Shown: positions 34,221 to 56,442, numbered from the stretch's first letter. The stretch: 64,000 nucleotides of DNA from Candidatus Aminicenantes bacterium (GCA_011772475.1 WVZK01000044.1:14727-78726); one strand, 5' to 3'. Notes: generated from the sequence alone by a model not told the origin. Translations and numbers: made by a program.

Positions 34221-34745
34221 TTATTCTGTTTCTGGAACAGGGTGTTTTATTTTCTCCCAAGCTGCATCAAAATCAAAACTTTTCTCATGGGCATTCTCAT
34301 GACAGGACAAGCAATGCTTTTTTATAGCGTCCGGCGATTCATAGGCGACCATTCCATTCGCCACAGACTCTTCTCTGCTTTTCATAATGTTTAGTTTTTT
34401 ATAAGCGCTCCCTGGGCCGTGACAGACTTCACAGGTGACTCCTTCCTCTTTAAAGTCAGCTGCTTTATCAGAAAGAGGAGCATGACAGCTAAGGCATTTG
34501 GGGCTTTCTACCGGATTTTCTACTCCTGCTTCTTGGGCCTTGGCAGACGCATCTGGAGAGCTTAAAGCCGCGAAAGATTTGGAATGTTTGCTCTCTTCCC
34601 AGATAGGAAATTGTTTTCCTCGTTTTTCACTCTTATGGCAGGTTTTACACTTTGCGGCCCCAACATACGTGAAATCCTGACCAAAAAGACTGATGATGAA
34701 TACAAAGGCAATGAGAACAATTGCGATAAATAGGACTTTTTTCAT
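34221..34745 (-). CDS. periplasmic tetraheme cytochrome c (c554-family-like)
   Basis: 174 aa with a signal peptide. Motifs are CKTCH, CLSCH, CEVCH, CLSCH. The RBS AAGGAGG lies just upstream. Confidence 0.8.
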   Translation of the reverse strand: MKKVLFIAIVLIAFVFIISLFGQDFTYVGAAKCKTCHKSEKRGKQFPIWEESKHSKSFAALSSPDASAKAQEAGVENPVESPKCLSCHAPLSDKAADFKEEGVTCEVCHGPGSAYKKLNIMKSREESVANGMVAYESPDAIKKHCLSCHENAHEKSFDFDAAWEKIKHPVPETE

Positions 34746-34791
34746 CCATTCCTCCTTGCAGTAATAAACCTTATTCGCATCTGCATTTATA

Positions 34792-34806
34792 GCAAAATAT
34801 GTGCCA
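34792..34806 (-). promoter_or_regulatory. sigma-54 (-24/-12) promoter of the tetraheme gene
   Basis: The minus strand reads TGGCAC-ATATT-TTGCT, an exact match to the TGGCAC-N5-TTGCW consensus, about 45 nt upstream of ATG 34745. Confidence 0.7.
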
Positions 34807-35034
34807 AAATAAAAGAGTTATATTTAGTTGTTGTAAAGATGGGAATCAAAGAACCTAAGAAAATTTTTAGAGAGAAATGGAGAAATTTGGCTAAAAGACT
34901 GGATATGATTCAATAATTATTCATCTACTTTCTGTCAAATAATAAAAAAAGAAAACTTAGATAAAAATTAATGGGAATTCTTATTTCTCGGCAAAGTATG
35001 ATAAATCAAAATCGATAAAAACTTGATAAAAATT

Positions 35035-35048
35035 GGGTGATATGACCC
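35035..35048. promoter_or_regulatory. candidate enhancer (UAS) palindrome for the NtrC-type activator
   Basis: GGGTGATATGACCC matches the perfect palindrome GGGTGATTTCACCC at 52745-52758 at 12 of 14 positions. It lies about 122 bp upstream of the -24 element at 35162 and about 237 bp upstream of the one at 34806. Confidence 0.45.
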
Positions 35049-35161
35049 AGCATTGGGGAAAATCCCCCTAAAGATAGAACCAGTACTACTTTCATTTAAT
35101 TTACTGTTATCTAACTTTATTATTTTCTATGAGATAGTAATCTATATATTTTTAAGACACT

Positions 35162-40217: not shown

Positions 40218-42209
40218 CTACATTGGTTTACCCAAAGATTCTAATTCTTTTTGAAGATTTGTCAATATCTCTTCTGTAGATGTATAGTTATGAATTCCAG
40301 AACTCCCATCGAGTTCAATGTTACGAATGGTCTGTTCAATATTTAAAAGTTGCGCTTTTTCTCCCTCAGATAAGCTGAGTTTTTTCTTTTCTCTTACAAT
40401 AACCTTAGTAGAATCTATGAGATTTTTTATGGAATCTTGCCATTCAGAGAAAATTTCTCTGTAATCTTCATCATGGCAGTCAAGACATTTATTTTTGTCT
40501 GAAAGAAAAATCTGATTCTGAGGGCCAAGATGGCAGTCGATACATTCTGCTTCCGCTTCGAACATTATATCCTTTGCAATGTCATGGCCATTTAATTGAC
40601 CTCCTTGATAGAAGGTTTTTTGTAATTGATGGCAAACAGTACAGTCCTTCTTAGTGTCCTTGTGGTGACAAACAGCGCAACCATGCTTAGTGGCGATGAA
40701 TTCCCCATGTTTTCTGACATTAGAATGGCAGACATTGCACTGTATTTTCTGTTCGATCAAGTGCTTTTGATGAGGAAAGTCTAGTCCGAAAATCTGCATA
40801 TTTATTTCTTCAATCCCGGCGTGGCAATTGTAACACTGGATAGGAATTTCTTTGGATACTGCTAAAAATGCTTCTGGTTTATATGAAGAGCCTATGATCC
40901 CAAGAGCCTCCACGACACTATTATAGGAAGCGGAAAGGAGTTCCTGAGAGTATTCAACATTATGAACACTCTTTCCTCGGTCGACTATGTCGATGTTAAA
41001 GGCAGCTTCCTCAAGCGTTTTCTGAGCTTTTTCTTTCTCTGTATTTTTAGATTGCTCGAGCTCCTGACTGGCTTTGTTATAGATGGTCCTGAGTTTACTC
41101 AATTTTTTATCTGTAGAGATTTCCCAATCCTTCATGATTCTCGCAAAGCCTCTTCCATGACAGGACTCGCAGGCTTGGGCCTTTGAGGTGAAGGTCTCAC
41201 TTTTTATAATTTTCCCACCTGTTTCTTCGTGAAAAATATGGCAGCCTTTACAGCTCAATCCCTTCTCCAGCATGATATTAGGCACTGGGTGGGAAATGCC
41301 CTTACCTCCCTCTCCGATGAAGAGAATCTTTTGAGCTTTGTGATAGTCGGTATGGCATGTCTGGCAATCGGCGATGGTCTCAATTTCTTTGATGATCTTA
41401 TGTTGAATATCCATGTGACATTGATTACATTCGATTTTATGAGAAAAAATATGCACAAAATGCATCTGATCAGTATCAACATATTTATTGAGTCGGTCTA
41501 TTTCCCAGTGGCATTTATAGCAGTTTTCTCGAGGCACCACACCGTCACCTAAGATGGTATGGCTGTGGCATTTGTTACATTCAAAGCCATTATCAAAAAC
41601 AAGGGAATGGTTGAATTTTGACGTCTTTTCCGAAATCAAATCTTCTCGATGATGGCAGTGGTAACATTCGCTTATCTGAGGATAATGGTCACTTTTTTTG
41701 AAATGACAAATAAAACAGGTGCTTTCTGTAACGGTGATATGTTCTCCTTGGACAATTTGGGAATGACAACTTGTACACCGGAGTTGTTTGCCTCTTTTTA
41801 GGTCTGTAAAGTGGATTTTATGGTCGAAAGCGACTCTTTTGAACTTCACTTTGCCTTCCAGAAGCCTCTTCTTGTGACATCCCTCCCGAAGACAGCTTTC
41901 ATCCGGAATTTCAGCCCAAGGCTTTGATTTCAGGTAGAGCTTGGTCCAGTAGCGACCGACTTGAAGAATCCCTTCGATTTTAGCTCGGATTTTTGGTCTA
42001 ATTCCTGGAGGATAATGACAGGCGTTACACTCGATGTGGCTGTGTGAAGAGGTCTTCCAGCTTTGGTAAAAGGGTTTCATATAATGACAGGAATTACAAA
42101 AATAGGAGTGAGAAGTGTACTCGACTGAACCCAGAGTTAGAATGAGGACAAATCCTATAATTGAGAGAAAGATTATTCTTTTCTTCTTATTAATCTTTTT
42201 TTTCTTCAT
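40218..42209 (-). CDS. membrane-anchored multiheme cytochrome c with 17 CXXCH plus one CX4CH; NapC/NirT-like N-terminus
   Basis: 663 aa. TM helix IIFLSIIGFVLILTLG is followed by CNSCH...CNACH, the NapC/NirT-type start. The remaining motifs are CTSCH, CFICH, CYHCH, CNKCH, CYKCH, CNQCH, CQTCH, CKGCH, CESCH, CYNCH, CNVCH, CAVCH, CTVCH, CIDCH, CLDCH. CLREGCH is encoded at 41894-41874. Confidence 0.8.
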   Translation of the reverse strand: MKKKKINKKKRIIFLSIIGFVLILTLGSVEYTSHSYFCNSCHYMKPFYQSWKTSSHSHIECNACHYPPGIRPKIRAKIEGILQVGRYWTKLYLKSKPWAEIPDESCLREGCHKKRLLEGKVKFKRVAFDHKIHFTDLKRGKQLRCTSCHSQIVQGEHITVTESTCFICHFKKSDHYPQISECYHCHHREDLISEKTSKFNHSLVFDNGFECNKCHSHTILGDGVVPRENCYKCHWEIDRLNKYVDTDQMHFVHIFSHKIECNQCHMDIQHKIIKEIETIADCQTCHTDYHKAQKILFIGEGGKGISHPVPNIMLEKGLSCKGCHIFHEETGGKIIKSETFTSKAQACESCHGRGFARIMKDWEISTDKKLSKLRTIYNKASQELEQSKNTEKEKAQKTLEEAAFNIDIVDRGKSVHNVEYSQELLSASYNSVVEALGIIGSSYKPEAFLAVSKEIPIQCYNCHAGIEEINMQIFGLDFPHQKHLIEQKIQCNVCHSNVRKHGEFIATKHGCAVCHHKDTKKDCTVCHQLQKTFYQGGQLNGHDIAKDIMFEAEAECIDCHLGPQNQIFLSDKNKCLDCHDEDYREIFSEWQDSIKNLIDSTKVIVREKKKLSLSEGEKAQLLNIEQTIRNIELDGSSGIHNYTSTEEILTNLQKELESLGKPM

Positions 42210-45302: not shown

Positions 45303-46121
45303 TTAGGCATAGCTGTGCAGGCCAGCCAGAAGATAATTCACGCCGAAATAGGTGAAGAGAGCAGCTAAGAAGCCAAGGACGGCAATATAGGCAGATCTGC
45401 GTCCTTTCCAGCCCATTACGATCCGGGTATGGAGGTAGAGAGCAAAGACAAACCAGGTTATCAGACTCCAAACTTCTTTGGGGTCCCAGCTCCAGTAGCT
45501 TCCCCAAGCGTAATAAGCCCATATCATGCCAAAAACGAGGCCCCCTAGAGTAAAGAGTGGAAAGCCGATGGCGATACATCTGTAGCTGATAGAATCGAGT
45601 TTTTCTGACGATATTCCCGTTTTCTTGGCCTTGCCTTTTTTTTCTTTTGAATCAGCCACTAAATACATGATGCTGGTGACAAAAGCCAAGGCAAAGAAAG
45701 CTTCGCCGAGGAGTGTGACCGAGACATGGAGCCAGAGCCAATAACTCTGGAGGGCAGGAACCAGGGGGGTTGCCTCTTTTGGCATCAACGGAGAAGAAGC
45801 TAAAGCCATGATGGCTATAACGACCAGCATAAAAAGGGCTCCTGCTTTTCGAATCTTGAATTTCCACTCGATAATGACATAGGCGAGAATAGCACTCCAT
45901 GCAAGGAAGGAAAGAGATTCATACATATTGGTGAAAGGTGCATGTCCGCTTTCCACAGTTCTCATAATAAGGGCAGCAGTATGGAGAAGCAGCCCGATGA
46001 ACGCTATGCTAAAGCCTGTTTTGGCCAGATTTTCTTTTTTTGAAAAGAAGTAAGAGAAGTAGAAAAACGCTGCTAAGAAATAGAATATGAAGGTTACGAG
46101 AAATAGGGTTGATTCGCTCAT
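45303..46121 (-). CDS. ccsA: System II cytochrome c biogenesis heme-handling protein CcsA/ResC
   Basis: 272 aa and polytopic. WWD (tryptophan-rich) motif WGSYWSWDPKEVWSLITW and conserved His residues. Confidence 0.9.
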   Translation of the reverse strand: MSESTLFLVTFIFYFLAAFFYFSYFFSKKENLAKTGFSIAFIGLLLHTAALIMRTVESGHAPFTNMYESLSFLAWSAILAYVIIEWKFKIRKAGALFMLVVIAIMALASSPLMPKEATPLVPALQSYWLWLHVSVTLLGEAFFALAFVTSIMYLVADSKEKKGKAKKTGISSEKLDSISYRCIAIGFPLFTLGGLVFGMIWAYYAWGSYWSWDPKEVWSLITWFVFALYLHTRIVMGWKGRRSAYIAVLGFLAALFTYFGVNYLLAGLHSYA

Positions 46122-47470
46122 TTTGATCTCCTTAGGGAAGTCATGATTTTCTCGAATTCAGATTGAAAGGCATCCCGGTTTTTGGAAGCGATTCCTCCTG
46201 CAGTGACTTCTGTTTTCCCGTGGCTCTCTTCCAGAATAACTTTAACCTCTCGAATAGGCCAGTAAAAAGCCAGGGCAAGTCCTAACATTAAAAAGCCGCA
46301 TCCAATCCAAATAATGTTAACTCCTGGGTCTTTAGATGCCTGGATGACAGAGAATTGACTGGACTTGAAATCACGAAGTTCTAGAGTCAAATCCATTTCC
46401 TTTTCTGAGTGAATACGGGCAAAATCGGGAAATTTGGCAAAGATCCAGCCTGAAAAAATTCTCTGTTCGTCTTGCCATCCTTCTATGAAAGCGGCTGGAT
46501 TGTTAGGTTCATTCGAGCGGGATGTAATCTCATTTTTATCGTTAATAATGAAGTCAGGTAGAAAATGGAGGGCAATAAGTTGAATATCATCGTCCCCAAG
46601 ACTGACTCTCTGCCCAACTTTGAACTCTAATTTCCTCAAGAATGATGGGTCCTTTCTTTTTTTAACCCAGATTTCCAAAGAAGGACTTTCCCAGTCCCAG
46701 CCATAGCCACTCTGGTAAAACGCGAAACCTTGGTAGGCCAGGGGATGGTTAACCTCGACAATTTTGCTGAGCTGAGGTTTCTCATTTTCGAGGACTGTTA
46801 GGGTGCTCTTCCAGTCTCTAACCCTTCCATCAGGATAGAATTCAGTTTCGAACTTATCCAGTCTTACCTGAAAGTCGGCCTTGGGGACCGGGAGAACTTG
46901 TCCTTCAAAAAGAGTCAAGTCCGCTTTGAATCCTCCCAGACCGCTGATGATTCCCCCTGCGAGTATGATGAGAAGGCCGAGATGGACAATATCTGACCCA
47001 AACAATCCCAGAGTCTTCTTTCGAGCCAGCAGGAAGCTTCTAGCTTCCTTTTTTTCCTCTTTCAGACGATAATGCCTGGCGGAGAACTCCCTTCCCAACT
47101 CTTCTCTAGTCCTGGCCAAATTCCAGTTTTTCCTGAATTTCTCCCTGATTTTTAAGGAATTGATGTTTTTTGTCTCGAATCGAAGCCTTGGCTGAAAAAC
47201 TCTTTTAAATTTCGGAGAAAGTCGATTCAAGGTACAGATGATGATATTTAAAGAAAAAAGGAAAAGAAGGCCATTGTACCACCAGGAATGGTAGAGGTTT
47301 GTGAACTGGAGGCGGATGAGAAGGCCGGCCAGCTGACCATAGCGAACAGCATATTCGGCAGCACTCCTTTGTTGAGGAATCAAGGTGCCCAGGATAGAGG
47401 CGCAAGTGATGATGATCAACAACACTATGGCTAATTTTACAGAGCTAAAAAATTTAATTAAAGATTTCAT
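46118..47470 (-). CDS. ccsB: System II cytochrome c biogenesis protein CcsB/ResB
   Basis: 450 aa. N-terminus FFSSVKLAIVLLIIITCASILGTLIPQ, a large periplasmic loop and a C-terminal TM. There is a 4-nt overlap with ccsA. Confidence 0.85.
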   Translation of the reverse strand: MKSLIKFFSSVKLAIVLLIIITCASILGTLIPQQRSAAEYAVRYGQLAGLLIRLQFTNLYHSWWYNGLLFLFSLNIIICTLNRLSPKFKRVFQPRLRFETKNINSLKIREKFRKNWNLARTREELGREFSARHYRLKEEKKEARSFLLARKKTLGLFGSDIVHLGLLIILAGGIISGLGGFKADLTLFEGQVLPVPKADFQVRLDKFETEFYPDGRVRDWKSTLTVLENEKPQLSKIVEVNHPLAYQGFAFYQSGYGWDWESPSLEIWVKKRKDPSFLRKLEFKVGQRVSLGDDDIQLIALHFLPDFIINDKNEITSRSNEPNNPAAFIEGWQDEQRIFSGWIFAKFPDFARIHSEKEMDLTLELRDFKSSQFSVIQASKDPGVNIIWIGCGFLMLGLALAFYWPIREVKVILEESHGKTEVTAGGIASKNRDAFQSEFEKIMTSLRRSK

Positions 47471-48786: not shown

Positions 48787-49057
48787 GGCTCACCTCCTTT
48801 TAAATTTATTCGAAAACCTTCTAATTTTTCTACCCCTGCTTGGCTTAAAACATATATCATTGTTGCCATAAATTGTCAAAGCTAAACTCGTGCTCTAAAT
48901 TCTTATGATTTTACAAATTAATAGATACTAATAATATAGAATTAGTAGATTTTTTTCAATAGAAATAGTCTATGAATTTCTCTATGAATGTTTATTCGAG
49001 TTTTTGGTCTTTTTGGCGACAATTTTGATGGATGGCTTCTTCTCTATTCAGGAGGTG

Positions 49058-49095
49058 AGGAAAAAAGAGAGAAGCAGTTAACTTCTCTCTTTTCT
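49058..49095 (-). terminator. Rho-independent terminator after the MtrB-like gene (hairpin readable on both strands)
   Basis: AGAGAGAAG (49066-49074) pairs with CTTCTCTCT (49082-49090) across a 7-nt loop. It is flanked by an A-run (49061-49065) and TTTCT. On the minus strand the hairpin is followed by TTTTTCC. Confidence 0.7.
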
Positions 49096-49139
49096 AAAAA
49101 ATTTATGAGTTGTCTTGTTTCTCTCTACTTCTTATCTTA

Positions 49140-51254
49140 TCAGAATCTGTAGCCAAACCCAAAATAGAGAATGTGGTAATGTCCTGAGTCCTCATATCCT
49201 CCTGTAGCATGGATGACAAAGGCTTTATCTTTATAGTCTTCGTACTTCCATTTTCCAAACACCGAGACATTCTTCATGAGAAAATAGTCAGCTCCTGCCG
49301 AAATCCTGTAATGGGCAATATCCTGGTCACTGAGATCGGCCAGACCTGATGTGTCCTCTTCTATACCCTCAATTCCAGTTGAAACCCAATCTGATTTTCC
49401 TATAGTCATTGAAAAGTCACCGAATATGGAGAAATTGTCAGAGAGTCTGTAATCAAGAGCTACCAAGAAAACATTCACATTTTTGTTGTAAGGAACATCT
49501 TTATCTTCTCGGGCTATCCTTTGGCCTTGGTACTCGTATTGTGTCCCGTAGATGAGGCTGTTCACGATCTTCTCGTTTAGGTAAGTGTAGGCCGCAGTGA
49601 TTGAAACTTTGTTTGTCAGAGCATACCATAAACTAAAAACAATGTTATGTCTTTTTTGAGACGAGTCTATCTGGTCGTTTTTGCCTGAATTATAGAAGTA
49701 GTTCGCAGTGAGAGCAAATCTGTTAGCCGGGATTACCGAAACGCCTGCTGAGACTAGATGAATATCAGTGTACAAGCTGGTCATGAAACGTTCCGTGGTA
49801 GGATCAACAGGATTTTCTTCAGCCGAGTGGGGCACACCAAGGGGATTTTCTATGCTTTTTCCTTTGTAACGGAGAAAACCCTTTATTTTTGGAGAGGGAT
49901 AGAAAGTAACTCCCACACGATAAGTGGTGGTTTTCATCTCCTCGAGGTACTTATCCATGAGGTCTTTTTCTTCTTCTTCTACTTCTGAAGCCCAACTAAA
50001 ATTCCTTTTCAGGCTGTTGTAGTCTAATCCGGCTCTTAGGTGGATTTTCTGCTTGGGAATCCTGTAGGAAGCATCAGCCCCTATAGCGTATCCATCTGTG
50101 GATAAGTGGTTGGCCACAAGGGTACTTGTGTCAAAAGCATAGTCAGGATCTAGGTTGTTTTCATACTTGTTGTTTCCATATCTCAGCGTGAGGTTAAAGC
50201 CTTTACCCAAGAGGGCTCGAAACCGGGAGAGAAAATTCTTGATATCAGCTTCTCCGTTGTTATTCTTGTTCTTGACTTTGGCAATTGTGTAGCTTCCAAA
50301 GAGTGAAGCATTCTTTACCGCATCAACTTTAGCTTTGAGAGTATCAGCATTCTTCTCAGAATCCGGAATATGGGCAAATTCTTGAGTTCCTTCGAAAGGG
50401 AAACTGCCGTAAGGATTTGTATACTCATGGTATAAAGGGTTGGCTTTATTTTCAAAGCTCCGCCCCAGGTGAGAGTAACTTAAGGCTACACCCTTGGTTT
50501 TGAACTCAGCTCCTATGATGAAATCCCTGGTTCTCTGATCGATGGCTTGAGTTTGGGCCTCGATATGGCACACTGTGCACATCTCGAAGGTTCTTGCCTG
50601 TTGGGAACCATTTTCATGGACATATCTGACTTGGGATTTAATTTTTAAGTTGGGGATCGAGGGGATAACGAGATCTGTTTTGTTGATTATTTCGGTTCGG
50701 GTTGTAGAATAGACATCGTCAGGATTGCTGTCTACAAAAGGGAATTCATGTTGAGCCTCGGGATCTGGATCCACATTCGTTAAGGGGTCATGATCCAGGC
50801 GGTGGATGAATCGACTAGATTGGAATTCAGTTCTTACGATTCTTCCTATGTCAAGCCCAGCGTAATAGGCCTGTTCATCCTTGTGGTAGGACTTGCCCGA
50901 GAGGTTGAACAAGCTATTATCTCCCAAGAATCCCTTCAGTCCAAAACCAGCTCCAGCAGAGGAACCAACAGTGGAAAACTCTGCTGCTCTTCCGCCAGAA
51001 AGCCCTGAGACATTTAACGGCAAGTCGCTTTCATCAGTCAATAGAAATCTTTGGAAGACGGAGACGTGTCCTGAAATATCAGTTTTTGTCTCTTTGGCTG
51101 CTCCTTCTGGAGCTAAGGCAAAGCTCTTGAGCGCGGATTTGACCAATTCGCTCGGTGAGTGGACTGGATTATCGTTCTTTTTTGATTCAGCAAAGCTCGA
51201 AGAGAGGCTGATTATGCCGATGATGGCTACGATTACGATTATTTTTTTTCTCAT
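49140..51254 (-). CDS. MtrB/PioB-like large outer-membrane beta-barrel (porin partner of the decaheme cytochrome), containing one CXXCH
   Basis: 704 aa with a signal peptide. It has long alternating-strand architecture and a C-terminal aromatic (FGFGYRF). Its size matches MtrB/PioB/MtoB, and it lies 9 nt downstream of the decaheme gene. CTVCH is at residues 226-230 (50579-50565). Confidence 0.65.
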   Translation of the reverse strand: MRKKIIVIVAIIGIISLSSSFAESKKNDNPVHSPSELVKSALKSFALAPEGAAKETKTDISGHVSVFQRFLLTDESDLPLNVSGLSGGRAAEFSTVGSSAGAGFGLKGFLGDNSLFNLSGKSYHKDEQAYYAGLDIGRIVRTEFQSSRFIHRLDHDPLTNVDPDPEAQHEFPFVDSNPDDVYSTTRTEIINKTDLVIPSIPNLKIKSQVRYVHENGSQQARTFEMCTVCHIEAQTQAIDQRTRDFIIGAEFKTKGVALSYSHLGRSFENKANPLYHEYTNPYGSFPFEGTQEFAHIPDSEKNADTLKAKVDAVKNASLFGSYTIAKVKNKNNNGEADIKNFLSRFRALLGKGFNLTLRYGNNKYENNLDPDYAFDTSTLVANHLSTDGYAIGADASYRIPKQKIHLRAGLDYNSLKRNFSWASEVEEEEKDLMDKYLEEMKTTTYRVGVTFYPSPKIKGFLRYKGKSIENPLGVPHSAEENPVDPTTERFMTSLYTDIHLVSAGVSVIPANRFALTANYFYNSGKNDQIDSSQKRHNIVFSLWYALTNKVSITAAYTYLNEKIVNSLIYGTQYEYQGQRIAREDKDVPYNKNVNVFLVALDYRLSDNFSIFGDFSMTIGKSDWVSTGIEGIEEDTSGLADLSDQDIAHYRISAGADYFLMKNVSVFGKWKYEDYKDKAFVIHATGGYEDSGHYHILYFGFGYRF

Positions 51255-51263
51255 CTTGGTCTC

Positions 51264-52166
51264 CTATCTCATGAATCTTCCGGCGCCTGATAACGACGGA
51301 TTGTCGCTCCCGTGAATCTGGGAATGACAGTGAGTGCACCTGGTAAAGAAGCTGACGTTCCATGTTTGAAGACTCAGAGCGGGATGGCGTCGATCTTCAT
51401 GGCTAGTGTGGCACTGCATGCAGAGGAATGGTTCAGTCTGACGCTGGAGATGGTTGGCGATGCTTCCGTGCGAGTCGTGGCAAATAGCGCAGCTTTCAAC
51501 AACAGGAGCGTGCTCAAAAGTGAAGGGTCCCTGTTTTTCAGCATGACAGCTGAGACAGAGCTCGTTAAGAGTTTCAGCTTTGATGTTTCTTTCTCCTCCC
51601 CCGTGAGAATCATGGCAGGAAGAGCAGTTCATTTTTTTCTCGCGAATGGGGTGATGCGAGGGAAAATTTATTTGAGCTCTCTTGTCAGCGTGGCACTTGA
51701 AGCAGAGGTCAGGATCGTTCTTGGCTAATTGATTCTTGGCAGCGGTGTGAGAGCGATGACAGCTCGTGCAGGAGACACCGCTTATGTCATGGGAACTTCC
51801 AGGCCAGTTCATCTGCATTCCGCTTCGGTGACACTTCAGGCAAATCTCCCCAGCTTCGGTAGGGGAGAGTTCCTTCAGGCGGATAATCTTTTCCGGGTCT
51901 TCCTCTTCCACGTGCAGGCTTCCTGGACCATGGCAAGCTTCGCAGCCAGCGATTTTCCCCTTGAGTTCAAAATCAGCCAGTCTTCCGTGGATTGTTTTCT
52001 TGAAGGCTTCTCCGACTTCCTCATGACATTCCATACAGGTCTCTGAACCAACATATTCTCCTTCGGAAGCCGGCTCTACAGCGCAAAGAGAGGAATACAG
52101 GAAGAAAATACCAGTAAGAACAAAAGCGCAGGTGATGAGTCCAATCAGTAAACTGCTTTTTTTCAT
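51264..52166 (-). CDS. periplasmic decaheme cytochrome c, MtrA/DmsE/PioA/MtoA family-like
   Basis: The probable start is ATG 52166 (MKKSSLLIGLITCAF...) after AAGGAG; the listed ORF extends to 52244. There are 10 CXXCH motifs: CMECH, CEACH, CLKCH, CTSCH, CFKCH, CSSCH, CLSCH, CAICH, CMQCH, CTHCH. About 300 aa. The C-terminal CTHCHSQIHGSDNPS is typical of the family. Confidence 0.8.
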   Translation of the reverse strand: MKKSSLLIGLITCAFVLTGIFFLYSSLCAVEPASEGEYVGSETCMECHEEVGEAFKKTIHGRLADFELKGKIAGCEACHGPGSLHVEEEDPEKIIRLKELSPTEAGEICLKCHRSGMQMNWPGSSHDISGVSCTSCHRSHTAAKNQLAKNDPDLCFKCHADKRAQINFPSHHPIREKKMNCSSCHDSHGGGERNIKAETLNELCLSCHAEKQGPFTFEHAPVVESCAICHDSHGSIANHLQRQTEPFLCMQCHTSHEDRRHPALSLQTWNVSFFTRCTHCHSQIHGSDNPSLSGAGRFMR

Positions 52167-52261
52167 CTTCTTCTCCTTAGTGAAAATTTCCGATAAATTG
52201 AATGCACCAATACCTTGTTTTATTATTTTCTGTTTGATTCCCACCTCCTTTGTTCATTCTC

Positions 52262-52618
52262 TTAATCTAAAGCCTCTTTGACAAGCGTTTTCATCTGCTC
52301 AGCGTTGAAAGGTTTTTCGACGACTGAAAAGACGTTTAAAGTGCTCAATTGAGGCTCTATTTGGTATTTCGGGTGTGCCGATAAAATTACAATTTTCGTC
52401 GACGGCTGGATTTTATTGACTTCTTTTAACATATCAAGACCAATTTCTTCATCTATTTCTATGTCCGCAAAGATGAGATGATAAGCATCGTTTGAGGCCC
52501 GGCTCAAAGCATCCTTGGTCGTGGCCACAGTATCAACTTCGTATCCTTCTTGAGCGAATATTTCCCTTAAAGACCATCGAATAAGCTTGTCGTCATCAAC
52601 GACTAGAATTTTATACAT
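52262..52618 (-). CDS. single-domain response regulator (CheY-like receiver)
   Basis: 118 aa. KILVVDDD...FADIEI...ILSAHPK receiver pattern, with no output domain. Confidence 0.85.
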   Translation of the reverse strand: MYKILVVDDDKLIRWSLREIFAQEGYEVDTVATTKDALSRASNDAYHLIFADIEIDEEIGLDMLKEVNKIQPSTKIVILSAHPKYQIEPQLSTLNVFSVVEKPFNAEQMKTLVKEALD

Positions 52619-52639
52619 TTCAATCCACGGAAGAAGATA

Positions 52640-52654
52640 GCAATTTTTGTGCCA
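52640..52654 (-). promoter_or_regulatory. sigma-54 (-24/-12) promoter of the receiver / MtrA-like / MtrB-like operon
   Basis: The minus strand reads TGGCAC-AAAAA-TTGCT, an exact consensus match, about 20 nt upstream of ATG 52618. Confidence 0.7.
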
Positions 52655-52744
52655 ATAAAAGGCACGGTCTTGGCTTTCTAATTTATTGAAAATAAATAAA
52701 TTACTTGCTATATAAATTCAGCAGTTTCTGGAGGTGACAAAAGT

Positions 52745-52758
52745 GGGTGATTTCACCC
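52745..52758. promoter_or_regulatory. candidate enhancer (UAS) palindrome for the NtrC-type activator
   Basis: GGGTGA-TT-TCACCC is a perfect 6-2-6 palindrome about 99 bp upstream of the -24 element at 52654. A related site lies at 35035-35048. Confidence 0.45.
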
Positions 52759-52842
52759 TCTAATGGGCTATATTTCCCATAATTATTAGGGGTTTACTAT
52801 TATTTTTTGAAGAGATTTTGTGAGAAGGAGTGGAGGGGGGAT

Positions 52843-54234
52843 TTACTCTGAAAAATGAAAGCGTTCGGGCGTGATATTGAATTTTTTAATCTTATAACGC
52901 AGAACATCTCGAGTAATGTTCAGTAATCTTGCGGCCTTGGTTTTATTCCCGTTTGTTTTTTTCAAGGCTTGAATCATCAGTTTTTGTTCCATATCGTACA
53001 GAGATAAGTTTTGGTCAGAAGTTTCGTCTAAGGAGCCTTCTGGAGATGAGAAAGAATCTCCGTTTAGATGAATGGGCAGATATTTGGCAGTGATTGAAGA
53101 ATTTTCTTCGAAGATCATGGCTCGTTCCACGGCATTTTTTAGCTCTCTGACATTTCCGGGCCAGTCGTATTCCAGAAAAAGCTTTTCTGTCTGCTTGTCC
53201 AATCCTTTAATGCTCTTTCTGAATTTTTTATCATAATGGAAAATGAAATGATTAGCTAAGGGCAGGATATCTTCCCTTCTCTCCCTTAAAGGCGGAATGT
53301 AGACAGGACAGACATTCAATCGATAAAACAAATCTCTCCTGAATTTTTCTTCTCTTGAGGCAAGCTCAATATCCTGGTTAGTGGCCGCTATGACTCGGAT
53401 ATCCACTTCGATATCTTTCAATCCGCCTACCCTCTTAAAAGAATGGATTTCCAGAAACCTCAACAGCTTGGCTTGGAGATGAAGGTTTAGAGTGCTTATT
53501 TCATCCAGGAACAAGGTTCCTCCGTCAGCCAGTTCGACTAGCCCTTTCTTCTGTGCCTTGGCGTCAGTAAAAGCTCCTTTTTCGTAGCCGAAGAGCTCGC
53601 TTTCCAGAAGGTTATCAGGAATGGCTGAACAGTTTATGGCGAGATAAGAGGCGTTTCTACGCCGGCTGAGATGATGAATGGCTTGAGCCAAGAGGTCCTT
53701 TCCAGTACCACTTTCTCCCTGAAGAAGAATGATAGAAGCTTCGCTTTCGGCAATCTTCTTGACCATTTCCAGGATCTGTTTCATTGCTTTTGAGTTGGTT
53801 ATAATCTGATCAGCATCAAATCTATTTTGTTCCTTTTCTTTGTAATAGGCGATTTCTTGTTTCAGAGAGGCAGCCTCCAGGGCGTTTTTTACAGTGTTCT
53901 GAAGCTTTGTGTAATCAATTGGCTTGGTGATGAAATCATAGGCTCCTCGGCGCATGGCCGTCACTGCATCTTCTATGACTCCGAAGCCGGTCATCATGAT
54001 GACCGGAAGCTCTGGCTGGGCCTTCTTTAATTCCATCAATAAATCCGTGCCTTTCTTATCCGGGAGTTTGACATCGAGCATCACGAGATCAGGTGTTTCT
54101 TCTTCTGCCAGGCGCAGGCCTTGAGCTCCGTTTTCAGCAGTAGAAGCTTCAAGGTTCCATTTGTTTAATTTCTGGCTGAGTGTCCAGCGGATGAGTTTTT
54201 CATCATCGACGATTAAGATCTTTTTTTTGCGCAT
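52843..54234 (-). CDS. sigma-54-dependent response regulator (NtrC family: REC + AAA+ + Fis-type HTH)
   Basis: 463 aa. ILIVDDE...MLDVKLPD receiver, Walker A GESGTGKD, ESELFGYEKGAFTDA (GAFTGA-type loop) and a C-terminal HTH (NKTKAARLLNITRDVLRYKIKK). Confidence 0.92.
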   Translation of the reverse strand: MRKKKILIVDDEKLIRWTLSQKLNKWNLEASTAENGAQGLRLAEEETPDLVMLDVKLPDKKGTDLLMELKKAQPELPVIMMTGFGVIEDAVTAMRRGAYDFITKPIDYTKLQNTVKNALEAASLKQEIAYYKEKEQNRFDADQIITNSKAMKQILEMVKKIAESEASIILLQGESGTGKDLLAQAIHHLSRRRNASYLAINCSAIPDNLLESELFGYEKGAFTDAKAQKKGLVELADGGTLFLDEISTLNLHLQAKLLRFLEIHSFKRVGGLKDIEVDIRVIAATNQDIELASREEKFRRDLFYRLNVCPVYIPPLRERREDILPLANHFIFHYDKKFRKSIKGLDKQTEKLFLEYDWPGNVRELKNAVERAMIFEENSSITAKYLPIHLNGDSFSSPEGSLDETSDQNLSLYDMEQKLMIQALKKTNGNKTKAARLLNITRDVLRYKIKKFNITPERFHFSE

Positions 54235-54236
54235 CC

Positions 54237-55718
54237 TTAATCTCCTTGTTGTAAAACCGGAAGTCGGATAAGAAAAGTGGTGCCTTTCCCTTCCTTGCTT
54301 TTCACTTGAATGGAACCTTGGTGGGCAGCAGTAATTTTCTTGCAGATGGAAAGACCGAGACCAGTGCCTCTGCTCTTGGTAGTGAAAAAAGGATTAAATA
54401 TCTGAGACAAGTGGTCTTTTTTTATCCCTTTCCCGTTGTCTTCAAATATAATTTCTAACTCTTTTTCATTCCTTTTGAGGAGCTTGATATCGATTTGACC
54501 TTTGTTATCTATGGCCGAAATACTGTTCAGCATGAGATTCAGCATGAGCTCTTGAATCTTGTCCGCATCTAGACGGGCTAGGGTGTTGTTAGCCAGTTTC
54601 TGAAAATGAAAGATGATATCTTTGCTTTTTTTTTGAGGTTGGGCGAGTTTGATGGCATTTTCTACACATTCGTTAGGATTAACAAGACTGAAGCTCATCT
54701 CTTTTGGCTTGGCATAGCTGAGGAGGTCCTGGATAACTTTATGCATTTTTTCGATTTGAAGCAGAATTTCATTAAATATTTCTTTCTTAGGGTCAGCGGG
54801 ATCGGTTTTTTGACCGATGATTTCCAAGGCTCCTTTCATTCCGGCGATGGGGTTTTTCATCTCATGAGCTAGCCCGGCAGCTAGCTCTCCTATGGAAGCC
54901 AGATGTTCAGCCTTTTCCATCTGCTGGCTATGCAGGTGTTCTATTTTTTGGTTAGCTTCGCGGAGCTTTTTCACCATGGCATTGAAGCTTTCAGCTAGGT
55001 TTCCGATTTCATCGTGTTTGACGACCGGAAATTGAATGTTCAAGTCTCCCTCCTGGACGGTCTTCATGTTGCCTTTTAATCGGGAAATGGGGCGATTGAC
55101 CAACTTTTCGAATAATCGGAGGATGATGAAGATGAGGATGGATATCGATACCAAGCCTATAAGAATACCCTTGAGCTGGCTTTTTTTAAGAAGAATGGCA
55201 GCAGCTGTATAATCGACGTTGATTTCTAAGATACCATTGATTTTCGCCTGAGGAGAATGGCAGGCATAGCATTCTTGTCTGTTTTCGATAAGACGAAAAT
55301 TCTGTATGGTTGATTTTGGCTTAAGGAAGTAGATATTAGATCTGGTTCCGTTCGAAAAAAGTTCTTTCAGTTTGTTTTGAATACTAGCTTCAGAGGAGCT
55401 CCCGATTTCATTCTCGTGAGAAGAGCGAAGTATCTTTCCTTCAGCAGAGATAATACGAATTTTTTTAATATAGCTGGAAGAGGCTGTTTGGCTGATGATA
55501 TCTTGAACTTCCTCTGGCTTTCCCTCTTTCATGGCCTGGAAAAGGCTGTTTTCGATCATCAAGCCTGCAACCTCAGCTTTTTGTCGGCTCACAGAGTGGA
55601 TGATGTTCCTCTGGCCTCTTAGATAGAGAACAATCAAGACAAGAGTTGTTATGATTCCGATGACTAACACATGGAGAATGACCTTATTCCTCAGACTCCA
55701 CTGCTTTAAGCTCTTCAT
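54237..55718 (-). CDS. sensor histidine kinase with a periplasmic c-type-heme motif, HAMP, HisKA and HATPase domains
   Basis: 493 aa. TM1 is VILHVLVIGIITTLVLIVLYL and TM2 is GILIGLVSISILIFIILRLF. CYACH (residues 150-154, 55271-55257) sits in the ~135-aa periplasmic loop. H-box is HEMKNPIAGM. G-boxes are present (GTGLGLSICKKI). Confidence 0.88.
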   Translation of the reverse strand: MKSLKQWSLRNKVILHVLVIGIITTLVLIVLYLRGQRNIIHSVSRQKAEVAGLMIENSLFQAMKEGKPEEVQDIISQTASSSYIKKIRIISAEGKILRSSHENEIGSSSEASIQNKLKELFSNGTRSNIYFLKPKSTIQNFRLIENRQECYACHSPQAKINGILEINVDYTAAAILLKKSQLKGILIGLVSISILIFIILRLFEKLVNRPISRLKGNMKTVQEGDLNIQFPVVKHDEIGNLAESFNAMVKKLREANQKIEHLHSQQMEKAEHLASIGELAAGLAHEMKNPIAGMKGALEIIGQKTDPADPKKEIFNEILLQIEKMHKVIQDLLSYAKPKEMSFSLVNPNECVENAIKLAQPQKKSKDIIFHFQKLANNTLARLDADKIQELMLNLMLNSISAIDNKGQIDIKLLKRNEKELEIIFEDNGKGIKKDHLSQIFNPFFTTKSRGTGLGLSICKKITAAHQGSIQVKSKEGKGTTFLIRLPVLQQGD

Positions 55719-55983: not shown

Positions 55984-56442
55984 CTAAGCTCTGGAAGCAG
56001 ACTTCTTTTTCGCCTGTCGATTTTTTTTCTTTTGGATTTCTATAAGGTCTTGGAGAGTTATTCCGTCGAAATAGCTTTTCAACATATTGGTGGCCTCTTT
56101 CCAGACTTCAAAAGTAGCACAGATAGGAATGCGGTTACAATAATCATTATCCTCAATGCAGTCTACCAAACAGCAGGAGCCTTCTAAAGCATGGAGAATT
56201 TCACTCAGTCTAATTTCAGAAGGAGCACGGGATAAAGTGTAACCTCCTCCTGCGCCTCGAATGCTTTTTACGAGCCTGGCAATTTTAAGGGGGATAATGA
56301 TCTGTTCTAGATAGCGAATTGATATTTCTTCTTCATCAGAGATGCTCTTGAGAATAACAGAATGATTTCCGTTATTATAATTTTGAGCAAGATTGAGCAT
56401 AAGGCGACTCCCATATCTTCCCTTAGTGGAAAGCCTTATCAT
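55984..56442 (-). CDS. Rrf2-family transcriptional regulator (IscR/NsrR-like, Cys-rich C-terminal half)
   Basis: 152 aa. MIRLSTKGRYGSRLMLNLA winged-helix start, GGGYTLSR, and cysteines in GSCCLVDCIEDNDYCNRIPIC that could ligate an Fe-S cluster. Confidence 0.85.
   Translation of the reverse strand: MIRLSTKGRYGSRLMLNLAQNYNNGNHSVILKSISDEEEISIRYLEQIIIPLKIARLVKSIRGAGGGYTLSRAPSEIRLSEILHALEGSCCLVDCIEDNDYCNRIPICATFEVWKEATNMLKSYFDGITLQDLIEIQKKKNRQAKKKSASRA

What the first reader, a model, noticed from the sequence alone, without database searches (positions are those of the whole stretch)
52640..55718. Heme-c sensor kinase + NtrC-type activator placed directly upstream of the sigma-54 conduit operon
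The histidine kinase has a ~135-aa periplasmic loop between two TM helices. That loop contains CYACH (55271-55257: tgc tat gcc tgc cat), about 20 residues before TM2, suggesting a covalently bound c-heme as redox or ligand sensor. The kinase is translationally coupled (2-nt gap) to a REC-AAA+-HTH sigma-54 activator. Its stop lies 190 bp upstream of the exact sigma-54 promoter of the CheY-like/MtrA-like/MtrB-like operon, and a perfect palindrome (52745-52758) sits in between. This forms a self-contained sense-and-respond cassette for an outer-membrane electron conduit.
Basis: partly seen in the sequence, partly recalled or inferred. Interest (0 to 1): 0.7.

Follow-up and report, generated by a model that had tools for sequence, protein, structure and literature searches.

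The report
Heme-sensing kinase controlling an electron conduit
An uncultivated Aminicenantes bacterium carries a two-component switch whose membrane kinase very probably holds a covalently bound heme in the periplasm. Its partner activator sits next to a conserved sigma-54 promoter for an outer-membrane electron-export operon, which makes this a testable candidate for how such bacteria match conduit production to redox conditions.

Summary
The 493-aa kinase has two transmembrane helices around a ~150-aa periplasmic domain. Its CYACH motif is invariant (CxxCH) in 120/120 orthologs and in 129/132 remote relatives.

A profile of the domain matches the solved heme-c sensor domains GSU0935 and GSU0582 (E 5e-15 and 8e-13). 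Cys150, Cys153, His154 and Met63 align with their heme-attachment cysteines, proximal His and distal Met. The AF2 model (pLDDT 93) is a single-Cache fold. The domain is therefore a divergent sCache_heme sensor, closer to GSU0582/0935 than to Tll0287/DUF3365.

The partner is the only sigma-54 activator in the 64 kb. In 15/15 loci the gene order is kinase, activator, tandem dyads (GGGTGA-N2-TCACCC twice, 20-21 bp apart, ~100 bp upstream of -24), an AT-rich element, a sigma-54 promoter, then CheY-like receiver, decaheme and barrel. This holds down to 31% sensor identity.

A second identical tandem-dyad plus sigma-54 unit in the window drives a tetraheme cytochrome gene.

All components belong to known families. 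The wiring to a conduit operon is new but computational, and the signal (redox versus NO/CO) is unresolved.

The parts
54237..55718 (-). Sensor histidine kinase, 493 aa: TM1, periplasmic sCache_heme domain, TM2, HAMP, HisKA (His285 at 54864-54866), HATPase_c
   Evidence: ORF. Pfam HAMP, HisKA and HATPase_c. Two hydrophobic segments. 120 full-length orthologs at 51-100% identity, named Candidatus Aminicenantes.
55170..55619 (-). Periplasmic single-Cache heme-c sensor domain (residues 34-183)
   Evidence: Profile A1 hits PDB 3B42 at E 4.6e-15 and 3B47 at E 7.8e-13. 50 of 58 family members match Pfam PF21563. AF2 model has pLDDT 93.4. Foldseek top hit is 3b42_B, followed by WalK, CitA and DctB Cache domains.
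55257..55271 (-). CYACH heme-c attachment motif (Cys150, Cys153, His154)
   Evidence: Invariant C, C and H in 120/120 orthologs, in 108 aligned sensors, and in 129/132 remote representatives. Aligns with Cys140, Cys143 and His144 of GSU0935.
55530..55532 (-). Met63 codon, predicted distal axial heme ligand
   Evidence: 98% conserved in orthologs and at least 90% in the 20-49%-identity family. Aligns with Met60 of GSU0935, its distal ligand.
52843..54234 (-). NtrC-type response regulator and sigma-54 activator, 463 aa: REC (Asp54 at 54073-54075), AAA+ (GESGTGK; GAFTDA at 53560-53577), HTH_8
   Evidence: Pfam Response_reg, Sigma54_activat (224 bits), AAA_lid_14 and HTH_8. It is the only such activator in the window. 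GAFTDA is conserved in all 10 orthologs examined.
52765..52778 (.). Distal dyad of the tandem upstream activating sequence (GGGAAATATAGCCC on the - strand)
   Evidence: Found. The tandem arrangement with 20-21 bp centre spacing recurs in 14 of 15 loci at the four-mismatch cut-off; L087 scored one dyad.
52745..52758 (.). Its centre is 98 bp upstream of the -24 GG.
   Evidence: In 15/15 loci the equivalent dyad centre lies 94-115 bp upstream of -24.
52679..52695 (-). Conserved AT-rich element TTATTTTCAATAAATTA, about 37 bp upstream of TGGCAC. It is one mismatch from the IHF consensus WATCAANNNNTTR.
   Evidence: It sits in a fixed column in the promoter-anchored display of 13 loci. IHF binding is an inference.
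52639..52654 (-). Sigma-54 -24/-12 promoter TGGCACAAAAATTGCT
   Evidence: 2 matches against 0.03 expected. A GG-N10-GC element is present at the same place in 15/15 loci.
52262..52618 (-). Single-domain CheY-like receiver (Asp52, Ser80, Lys102), first gene of the sigma-54 operon
   Evidence: Pfam Response_reg. 27% identical to the activator's REC domain, sharing the DDxKLIRWSL motif. Present in all loci.
51264..52244 (-). Periplasmic decaheme cytochrome (10 CxxCH), MtrA/DmsE/OmcK-like
   Evidence: NCBIfam GSU2203 family at 355 bits (cut-off 325) and DmsE family at 253 bits (cut-off 192). Ten CxxCH motifs counted.
49140..51254 (-). 704-aa outer-membrane beta-barrel with one CTVCH (residues 226-230, 50565-50579)
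   Evidence: Pfam OMP_b-brl and Porin_4. NCBIfam GSU2204 family CXXCH (seleno)protein at 268 bits, below the 350 cut-off. The CxxCH at residue 226 is conserved in L085, L086 and L087.
35035..35068 (.). Second tandem dyad pair: GGGTCATATCACCC (35035-35048) and GGGGGATTTTCCCC (35055-35068), 20 bp apart. Centre of the promoter-proximal dyad (35035-35048) is about 236 bp upstream of the second sigma-54 promoter.
34791..34806 (-). Second exact sigma-54 promoter TGGCACATATTTTGCT
34221..34745 (-). Secreted tetraheme cytochrome (174 aa), predicted second target of the activator in this genome
   Evidence: Pfam Cytochrome_C554 and 4 CxxCH motifs. The sigma-54 and dyad unit is not conserved upstream of 14 metagenomic relatives.

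Best explanation
This is a two-component circuit dedicated to extracellular electron transfer.

The kinase carries, between its two membrane helices, a single-Cache domain. The cell's System II (ResB/CcsB) machinery is predicted to attach one c-type heme to Cys150 and Cys153 of this domain. His154 would be the proximal ligand and Met63 the distal ligand.

By analogy with the homologous Geobacter sensors GSU0582 and GSU0935, oxidation of the heme, or displacement of Met63 by NO or CO, would release the methionine. This would change spin state and conformation. The change would pass through TM2 and the HAMP domain to the kinase core.

The kinase would then set the phosphorylation of Asp54 on the co-translated NtrC-type activator. 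Activator dimers would bind two GGGTGA-N2-TCACCC dyads lying two helical turns apart, about 100-120 bp upstream of the -24 element. They would assemble into the AAA+ ring, loop over a conserved AT-rich (IHF-like) element, and open the sigma-54 promoter.

That promoter drives the CheY-like receiver, the periplasmic decaheme and the outer-membrane barrel. In this genome a second copy of the same enhancer-promoter unit drives a periplasmic tetraheme cytochrome. The CheY-like receiver resembles the activator's own receiver domain. It may compete for phosphoryl groups and so provide feedback.

Shown by computation: domain homology, residue conservation, fold, synteny, and conservation of the cis-elements.

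Inferred: heme attachment, the nature and sign of the signal, phosphotransfer partners, DNA binding, and the IHF and CheY roles.
For: Sensor domain:
- CxxCH is invariant in 120/120 orthologs while the inner residues vary.
- It is invariant in 108 aligned sensors together with Met63, Asn146, Gly94 and Ser99.
- It is present in 129/132 remote representatives. The 3 exceptions are short sequences (82-180 aa).
- The family profile hits 3B42 at 4.6e-15 and 3B47 at 7.8e-13 over the whole domain. Met, Cys, Cys and His all align.
- These residues correspond to Met60, Cys140, Cys143 and His144 of GSU0935, whose redox-linked Met on/off mechanism is described in PMC8396549.
- 50 of 58 family members hit PF21563.
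- The AF2 model has pLDDT 93.4, with CxxCH in a short helix and loop before the last strand.
- Foldseek returns 3b42 first, then WalK and CitA Cache domains.
- Only two hydrophobic segments flank the domain.
- ResB and CcsB genes are in the cluster.

Activator and promoter:
- The activator has REC, Sigma54_activat and HTH_8 domains. It is the only sigma-54 activator in the window.
- The 2-nt kinase-activator junction recurs in orthologs.
- The sigma-54 promoter is exact: 2 matches against 0.03 expected.
- The dyad occurs 4 times against 0.34 expected. All four copies form two tandem pairs, each upstream of one of the two sigma-54 promoters.
- 15/15 loci keep the dyad(s), the AT-rich element, the sigma-54 promoter and the CheY-like gene. 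14 of 15 show the tandem pair 20-21 bp apart (L087 scored one dyad). The nearer dyad of the pair lies 94-115 bp from the -24 element.
- This holds in loci whose sensor is only 31-39% identical and which lack the neighbouring Rrf2 gene.

Precedent: in Geobacter, BccR is a REC-AAA+-HTH activator that induces the sigma-54 cbcBA cytochrome operon as redox potential falls (bioRxiv 10.1101/2021.04.15.440034).
Against: - No experiment has been done. Heme incorporation, phosphotransfer and DNA binding are all untested.
- The window's own sensor sequence scores only 18 bits against PF21563 (cut-off 27). It has no PF11845 hit.
- The AAA+ loop reads GAFTDA rather than the canonical GAFTGA.
- The second target promoter is not conserved in 14 relatives of the tetraheme gene. 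Those carry sigma-70-like promoters.
- The proximal dyad followed by ACTTTTG was flagged as a weak terminator-like hairpin.
- The presence of rpoN in this genome was not checked.
- The signal is ambiguous. Signalling-type sCache_heme proteins behave as NO sensors in a 2026 preprint (PMC12889525).
Confidence: 0.72

Rival explanations
1. The circuit is the same, but the physiological signal is a diatomic gas (NO or CO) binding the heme, rather than periplasmic redox potential. The conduit operon would then be a nitrosative-stress or gas response.
For: GSU0582 and GSU0935 bind NO in both redox states and CO when reduced, with displacement of Met60 (PMC8396549). A 2026 preprint reports that sCache_heme domains fused to signalling modules have NO-sensor properties (PMC12889525).
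Against: The regulated genes are electron-transfer components: a decaheme, a barrel and a tetraheme. They are not NO-detoxification genes. The Met distal ligand is near-invariant. In the Geobacter sensors the mechanism favoured in the review is a redox-linked Met switch, with midpoint potentials of -156 and -251 mV.
Confidence: 0.22
2. The palindrome at 52745-52758 is an intrinsic transcription terminator for the kinase-activator operon, not an activator binding site.
For: One search lists GGGTGAAATCACCC plus ACTTTTGTCA as a terminator-like site on the - strand. It lies about 85 nt after the activator stop codon.
Against: - The stem is only 5 bp. The fold energy of the region is not unusual (z -1.6; 14 of 200 shuffles fold as well).
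- The T-tail is absent in L001 and L002 while the dyad is kept.
- The dyad comes as a tandem pair at 20-21 bp spacing, at fixed distance from -24 (tandem in 14 of 15 loci).
- The same tandem pair occurs in a divergent intergenic region (35035-35068), where no upstream gene needs terminating.
- In L003 the symmetry extends to 26 bp at the DNA level.
Confidence: 0.07
3. The kinase and activator control some other, distant regulon. The sigma-54 conduit promoter would be served by a different activator, and adjacency would be coincidental.
For: No direct binding or expression data exist. Orphan or cross-wired sigma-54 activators are common in other bacteria (own knowledge).
Against: The gene order kinase, activator, enhancer, promoter, operon is kept in 15/15 loci down to 31% sensor identity. 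There is only one sigma-54 activator in 64 kb, but two sigma-54 promoters with the same dyads.
Confidence: 0.06
4. CxxCH in the loop is not a heme site. It would instead be a structural disulfide or a metal-binding motif.
For: The heme is not demonstrated for this protein. The Pfam gathering threshold for the heme-sensor family is not reached by the single sequence.
Against: His after the second Cys is invariant. There is whole-domain homology to two crystal structures with covalently bound heme, with ligand residues aligned. The location is periplasmic and a maturation system is encoded nearby.
Confidence: 0.03

Closest known systems
GSU0582 / GSU0935 periplasmic heme-c sensor domains of Geobacter sulfurreducens chemoreceptors (PDB 3B47, 3B42; Pfam PF21563; 'sCache_heme')
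   Same: The domain is homologous over its whole length (profile E 4.6e-15 and 7.8e-13). It has the same position between two TM helices followed by HAMP. CxxCH sits before the last strand. The Met distal ligand and His proximal ligand are aligned.
   Different: The output here is a HisKA/HATPase kinase, not an MCP signalling domain. Sequence identity is only about 21%. The single sequence falls below the Pfam cut-off. The host is Aminicenantes, not Geobacter. A defined downstream regulon can be predicted here.
Tll0287 / DUF3365 (PF11845) heme-c Cache domains
   Same: Same superfamily, according to the 2026 sCache_heme preprint. Both have a Cache fold with CxxCH.
   Different: The match is weak and partial: profile E 2.6e-4 over 48 residues and Foldseek rank 26. 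Only 7 of 58 family members hit PF11845.
BccR (GSU0598) and the sigma-54 cbcBA operon of Geobacter sulfurreducens
   Same: A REC-AAA+-HTH activator is encoded next to a sigma-54 operon for respiratory cytochromes used in extracellular electron transfer. That operon also contains a response-regulator gene. Induction is linked to redox potential.
   Different: BccR is divergently transcribed and no cognate kinase is described in the passages read. Its target is an inner-membrane bc-type quinol oxidase, not an outer-membrane conduit. Here the kinase with its heme sensor is co-encoded with the activator.
NtrB/NtrC-class two-component systems (AtoSC, ZraSR)
   Same: The kinase core and regulator score best against AtoS/ZraS and AtoC/NtrC models. 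The regulator has Asp54, Walker A, HTH_8 and a tandem-dyad enhancer about 100 bp upstream of -24/-12.
   Different: All equivalog cut-offs are missed: AtoS 229 against 646, and AtoC 454 against 714. The sensor domain and the regulon are different. The AAA+ loop reads GAFTDA.
Porin-cytochrome conduits (MtrAB/DmsEF of Shewanella; OmcK/GSU2203-GSU2204 of Geobacter)
   Same: The decaheme passes the GSU2203 and DmsE family cut-offs and is followed by a large beta-barrel.
   Different: In this window the barrel carries its own CxxCH and there is no extracellular decaheme partner. Sister lineages have a ~620-aa barrel without CxxCH plus a ~713-aa decaheme. The known regulators named in the papers consulted (OrfR/OrfS at the Geobacter omb-oma-omc clusters) are not sigma-54 two-component systems. 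CRP control in Shewanella is my recollection.

Membership tests
sCache_heme (GSU0582/GSU0935/Tll0287-type heme-c Cache sensor) | Extracytoplasmic single-Cache (PDC) fold | tested here: met
   AF2 model with pLDDT 93.4. Foldseek hits 3b42, WalK (TM 0.68-0.73), CitA and DctB. The domain lies between two hydrophobic segments.
sCache_heme (GSU0582/GSU0935/Tll0287-type heme-c Cache sensor) | Strictly conserved CxxCH in a short helix and loop inserted before the last beta-strand | tested here: met
   Invariant. In the model, residues 121-125 lie in a short helix and loop between strands 108-116 and 131-140. This matches the definition in PMC12889525.
sCache_heme (GSU0582/GSU0935/Tll0287-type heme-c Cache sensor) | Significant sequence homology to structurally characterised members | tested here: met
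   Profile A1 against PDB gives 3B42 at 4.6e-15 and 3B47 at 7.8e-13.
sCache_heme (GSU0582/GSU0935/Tll0287-type heme-c Cache sensor) | Single sequence reaches the Pfam gathering score of PF21563 or PF11845 | tested here: not met
   PF21563 scores 17-18 bits against a cut-off of 27. There is no PF11845 hit. 50 of 58 family members match PF21563 at E<0.01, so this is a divergent subfamily.
sCache_heme (GSU0582/GSU0935/Tll0287-type heme-c Cache sensor) | Covalently bound c-type heme | not testable with these tools
   This needs expression with Ccm or Ccs machinery and a heme stain or spectroscopy.
NtrC-family bacterial enhancer-binding response regulator | REC with phospho-acceptor Asp, sigma-54 interaction AAA+ domain, and C-terminal Fis-type HTH | tested here: met
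   Pfam Response_reg at 101 bits, Sigma54_activat at 224 bits and HTH_8 at 53 bits. Asp54 is read from the sequence.
NtrC-family bacterial enhancer-binding response regulator | GAFTGA sigma-54 contact loop | tested here: inconclusive
   The loop reads GAFTDA, conserved in all 10 orthologs. Phe and Thr are kept and the fifth residue differs. The functional consequence is unknown.
Sigma-54-dependent promoter with upstream enhancer | -24 GG and -12 GC spaced by 10 nt, matching TGGCAC-N5-TTGCW, directly upstream of the operon | tested here: met
   Exact match. GG-N10-GC is conserved in 15/15 loci.
Sigma-54-dependent promoter with upstream enhancer | Dyad-symmetric activator sites about 80-150 bp upstream | tested here: met
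   Tandem dyads lie 94-136 bp upstream of -24 (tandem pair in 14 of 15 loci; one dyad scored in L087). Binding by this activator was not tested.
Sigma-54-dependent promoter with upstream enhancer | rpoN present in the genome | not tested
   Only the 64-kb window and about 20-kb loci were available.
Porin-cytochrome conduit (MtrAB / GSU2203-2204 type) | Periplasmic decaheme of the MtrA/DmsE/OmcK family | tested here: met
   NCBIfam NF041028 at 355 bits (cut-off 325). TIGR03508 at 253 bits (cut-off 192). Ten CxxCH motifs.
Porin-cytochrome conduit (MtrAB / GSU2203-2204 type) | Adjacent large outer-membrane beta-barrel of the MtrB/GSU2204 family | tested here: inconclusive
   NF041027 at 268 bits is below the 350 cut-off. 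Pfam OMP_b-brl and Porin_4 are above cut-off. An ortholog in L088 hits PF11854 MtrB_PioB.

The most novel reading that the evidence does not exclude
The sensor heme may exchange electrons directly with the periplasmic cytochrome pool that feeds the conduit. The cassette would then be a self-contained 'redox-stat'. The oxidation state of the electron-export chain would set kinase activity. Kinase activity would set conduit and periplasmic cytochrome synthesis through a sigma-54 enhancer. The operon-encoded CheY-like decoy would drain phosphoryl groups for negative feedback. If so, this would be the first complete sensor-to-promoter circuit for control of an outer-membrane electron conduit. It would also be a compact, portable redox-to-transcription module.
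Probability: 0.3. Interest if true: 0.7.

Novelty: new member of a known kind. Interest (0 to 1): 0.52.

Why it matters
How metal-respiring and electroactive bacteria sense acceptor availability or redox potential, and adjust their electron conduits, is largely unknown. In Geobacter the sigma-54 activator BccR induces a cytochrome operon as potential falls, but no sensor for it is described in the passages read.

Here, sensor, activator, enhancer, promoter and conduit genes are contiguous. They are conserved across a whole uncultivated lineage, Aminicenantes, which is common in anoxic sediments. The binding motif is precisely defined: GGGTGA-N2-TCACCC twice, 20-21 bp apart.

This makes the question directly testable by heterologous reconstitution: heme domain spectroscopy and redox titration, EMSA, and sigma-54 reporters.

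It also offers:
- a motif for predicting the regulon in metagenomes;
- a possible part for bioelectronic sensing;
- a function for proteins now annotated only as 'HAMP domain-containing protein' and 'response regulator'.

Tried and rejected
- A word-indexed homolog search with the 206-aa sensor alone returned nothing. This was a limitation of the index. The full-length query and the exhaustive HMMER search found hundreds of relatives.
- A direct Pfam scan of the sensor gave only sub-threshold hits: Cache_WalK, Mcp40H-20_sensor and LapD_MoxY_N. Family assignment therefore needed a profile.
- The GTDB genome scan with the full-length alignment chose generic kinase-core patterns and was flooded by unrelated kinases. 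Only L005 was an ortholog. Other loci from that scan were checked (L013, L020, L023, L027, L078). One Thermodesulfobacteriota locus (L013) has a CxxCH kinase plus a GAFTDA activator, but no sigma-54 promoter, dyad or cytochromes on its short contig.
- I tested whether the second sigma-54 and dyad unit (tetraheme gene) is conserved. In 14 metagenomic relatives at 38-80% identity, none has it. The eight upstream regions read carry TTGACA-type promoters, and in some the gene follows ccsA. That target appears specific to this lineage.
- The terminator reading of the palindrome was considered and judged unlikely.
- Rrf2 as the dyad-binding protein was judged unlikely. Loci L107-L109 keep the dyads, and no adjacent Rrf2 gene is called in them.
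- NCBIfam equivalog assignment of the pair to AtoSC, ZraSR or NtrBC was rejected. All scores are far below the cut-offs.

Full report
**What is there**

The finding spans two co-directional genes on the minus strand and the intergenic region after them.

- The first gene (54237-55718) encodes a 493-aa histidine kinase.
- The second (52843-54234) encodes a 463-aa response regulator. It starts 2 nt after the kinase stop (TAA GG ATG).

Pfam finds HAMP, HisKA and HATPase_c in the kinase. It finds Response_reg, Sigma54_activat (224 bits), AAA_lid_14 and HTH_8 in the regulator.

Hydropathy gives exactly two membrane segments in the kinase, at about residues 13-33 and 184-203. These enclose roughly 150 residues.

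Exact copies of both proteins are deposited from a Candidatus Aminicenantes MAG. They are annotated only as 'HAMP domain-containing protein' and 'response regulator'.

**Is the CxxCH meaningful?**

Yes.

- All 120 best full-length relatives (51-100% identity, mostly labelled Aminicenantes) have exactly one CxxCH at the same position. The two inner residues vary freely.
- In an alignment of 108 sensor regions, C150, C153 and H154 are invariant. Met63 is 98% conserved.
- An exhaustive HMMER search with the periplasmic domain alone found 133 cluster representatives at E<=1e-3. Of 132 examined, 129 carry the motif. The three without it are short sequences (82-180 aa). Some carry a second CxxCH about 38 residues upstream.
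- In a 58-sequence alignment at 20-49% identity to the query, the only invariant columns are C, C and H. Met63, Gly94, Ser99, Gly106, Asn146 and Gly162 are at least 90% conserved.

**What the domain is**

The single sequence has no Pfam hit above threshold. The family profile tells a clearer story.

- It matches the crystal-structure sequences of the periplasmic heme-c sensor domains of the Geobacter chemoreceptors GSU0935 (3B42, E 4.6e-15) and GSU0582 (3B47, E 7.8e-13), over the whole domain.
- Tll0287 (5B82) matches only partially, at E 2.6e-4.
- In that alignment the family Met aligns with chain residue 26 of 3B42. The C, C and H align with chain residues 106, 109 and 110.
- With the 34-residue offset, these are Met60, Cys140, Cys143 and His144. 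Those are the distal ligand, the two thioether cysteines and the proximal ligand described for GSU0935 (PMC8396549).
- 50 of 58 family members match Pfam PF21563.
- An AF2 model built on the alignment is confident (pLDDT 93.4). It shows a long N-terminal helix, a five-stranded sheet, and CxxCH in a short helix and loop before the last strand.
- Foldseek ranks 3b42_B first. Its high rmsd probably reflects the domain-swapped dimer seen in those crystals (PMC3460858 abstract). Next come the WalK, CitA, DctB and KinD Cache domains.

A 2026 preprint unites GSU0582/0935 and DUF3365/Tll0287 as 'sCache_heme'. It lists histidine-kinase fusions among the common architectures (PMC12889525).

The suggested DUF3365 comparison is right at superfamily level, but the nearest relatives are the Geobacter sensors. 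System II cytochrome maturation genes (ResB, CcsB) lie a few genes downstream.

**The promoter and the palindrome**

TGGCACAAAAATTGCT (52654-52639) is an exact match to the sigma-54 consensus. The pattern occurs twice in the window against 0.03 expected. It starts 188 nt after the regulator stop. It ends about 20 nt before the start of a 118-aa CheY-like gene.

That gene is followed by a decaheme cytochrome. The decaheme passes the NCBIfam GSU2203 family cut-off (355 against 325) and the DmsE family cut-off (253 against 192). A 704-aa beta-barrel follows.

Twenty bp further upstream is a second, weaker dyad, GGGAAATATAGCCC.

**Comparative test**

I retrieved 14 other loci encoding orthologous or more distant kinases. 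These are L001-L005, L085-L090 and L107-L109. Sensor identity goes down to 31%.

- Every locus with enough sequence has the order kinase, sigma-54 activator, CheY-like receiver, decaheme, barrel.
- In all 15 loci the activator-CheY spacer contains dyads matching GGGTGAWWTCACCC. At a cut-off of four mismatches, 14 loci show a tandem pair with 20-21 bp centre spacing. L087 scored only its proximal dyad.
- The dyad of the pair nearer the promoter lies 94-115 bp upstream of the -24 GG.
- A fixed-position AT-rich element (TTATTTTCAAT) lies about 37 bp upstream of the promoter. In the window it is one mismatch from the IHF consensus.
- A GG-N10-GC promoter follows.

In L003 the symmetry extends to a 26-bp perfect palindrome, AAAAGTGGGTGATATCACCCACTTTT.

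This is the classical architecture of an NtrC-type enhancer. It is conserved well beyond the background of these AT-rich spacers.

**A second target**

Within the window the degenerate dyad GGGNNAWWTNNCCC occurs four times against 0.34 expected. The other two copies (35035-35048 and 35055-35068) are also 20 bp apart. The proximal one (centre) sits about 236 bp upstream of the window's only other exact sigma-54 promoter (34806-34791).

That promoter precedes a secreted tetraheme cytochrome gene. The regulator is the only sigma-54 activator encoded in the 64 kb. This genome therefore probably has at least two promoters in the regulon.

The second unit is not conserved. In 14 metagenomic relatives of the tetraheme gene, no sigma-54 promoter or dyad lies upstream. 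The eight upstream regions I read carry TTGACA-type sigma-70-like promoters instead.

**Mechanism**

The best-supported model is as follows.

1. The periplasmic heme is His154/Met63-ligated when reduced. It loses Met63 on oxidation or on NO/CO binding, as shown for GSU0582 and GSU0935.
2. The resulting conformational change passes through TM2 and HAMP to the kinase.
3. The kinase sets phosphorylation of Asp54 on the activator.
4. The activator binds the tandem dyads, oligomerises, and remodels sigma-54 holoenzyme at the conduit promoter.

The CheY-like receiver has a complete active site. It shares the DDxKLIRWSL N-terminus with the activator's REC domain, at 27% identity. It could be a phosphate sink or a second output.

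The sign of regulation and the true signal cannot be deduced. The redox and NO/CO readings are both alive.

The functional precedent is BccR of Geobacter. It is a REC-AAA+-HTH activator needed to induce the sigma-54 cbcBA cytochrome operon as potential falls. That operon also contains a response-regulator gene. No cognate kinase is described in the passages read.

**Rivals**

- Terminator. A terminator reading of the palindrome was raised. It is weak for several reasons.
  - The stem is only 5 bp and the fold energy is unremarkable.
  - The T-tail is not conserved.
  - The dyad occurs in tandem.
  - The same pair occurs between divergent genes.
- Rrf2 as the binding protein. This is unlikely because L107-L109 keep the dyads and no adjacent Rrf2 gene is called in them.
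- Coincidental adjacency. This is contradicted by 15/15 synteny.

**Caveats**

- Nothing has been shown experimentally.
- The AAA+ loop reads GAFTDA rather than GAFTGA, although it is conserved.
- rpoN was not looked for.
- The barrel is below the GSU2204 family cut-off.
- The kinase and regulator are not equivalogs of any named system. AtoS, AtoC, ZraS, ZraR and NtrC are all far below cut-off.

**Novelty and score**

Every component belongs to a described family: sCache_heme sensor, NtrC-type activator, sigma-54 enhancer and porin-cytochrome conduit. Heme-Cache kinases have been catalogued.

What is new is the conserved and precisely mapped wiring of such a sensor to an outer-membrane conduit operon in an uncultivated lineage. 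I found no description of it in the literature searches.

I rate it a new member of a known kind, with moderate interest (0.52). It offers a directly testable candidate for redox control of extracellular electron transfer.

Noticed in passing
window 34791-35068 and 34221-34745: A second exact sigma-54 promoter has the same tandem dyads (20 bp apart), with the proximal dyad centre about 236 bp upstream. It drives a secreted tetraheme cytochrome. None of 14 metagenomic relatives of that gene has the sigma-54/dyad unit. The eight upstream regions read show sigma-70-like TTGACA promoters, and in some the gene follows ccsA.
   Followed up: yes
window 49140-51254 (CTVCH at 50565-50579); loci L085-L087 compared with L001-L004 and L088-L090: There are two conduit versions. 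In the window type, a ~704-aa barrel carries one conserved CxxCH at residue 226 and has no extracellular cytochrome. In the other type, a ~620-aa barrel lacks CxxCH and is followed by a ~713-aa decaheme. The window has a 353-bp gap (48787-49139) where that cytochrome would be. NCBIfam calls the barrel family 'GSU2204 family CXXCH-containing (seleno)protein'.
   Followed up: partly
window 55984-56442 (-): An Rrf2-family regulator with a Cys-rich C-terminal segment (CCLVDC...C...C), possibly Fe-S binding, lies directly upstream of the kinase. It is conserved there in the loci with closer kinase orthologs, sometimes duplicated. No Rrf2 gene is called next to the kinase in the more distant L107-L109. 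A sigma-70-like promoter (TTGTAA-17-TATAAT, 55804-55776) lies between it and the kinase.
   Followed up: partly
L003, L004, L107, L108 (gene just upstream of the heme kinase): Some lineages insert a soluble PAS-HisKA_2 kinase (~350 aa) immediately before the heme kinase. This suggests a second, cytoplasmic input to the same regulator.
   Followed up: no
window 35239-37302 (+): A 687-aa protein has 13 CxxCH motifs fused to a multi-helix membrane domain. It resembles CbcL-type inner-membrane quinol oxidases. It is transcribed divergently from the tetraheme gene and shares the intergenic region that holds the second dyad pair.
   Followed up: no
whole window: Eighteen ORFs of at least 100 aa carry CxxCH, with up to 17 motifs in one ORF (40218-42209). 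System II maturation genes lie at 45303-47470. The window is essentially a cytochrome and electron-transfer island, at 42% GC.
   Followed up: partly
window 55671-55685 (kinase residues 12-16): Lys12 and His16 at the cytoplasmic start of TM1 are invariant in all 108 aligned orthologs. This is unusual for a membrane anchor. No function is known.
   Followed up: no
window 53560-53577: The sigma-54 contact loop reads GAFTDA instead of GAFTGA. The variant is conserved in all orthologs. It is also present in a Thermodesulfobacteriota activator (L013) that sits next to a CxxCH kinase.
   Followed up: partly
remote homologs P0164, P0177, P0182, P0198 and others: A subset of the sensor family carries a second CxxCH about 38 residues upstream of the conserved one. 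These would be di-heme Cache sensors. One protein (P0227) has three CxxCH-containing repeats.
   Followed up: no
L108 288-4795: In one distant locus, selenocysteine machinery genes (selA, selD-like, selB) lie directly upstream of the cassette. This is notable because NCBIfam describes the barrel family as a possible selenoprotein.
   Followed up: no
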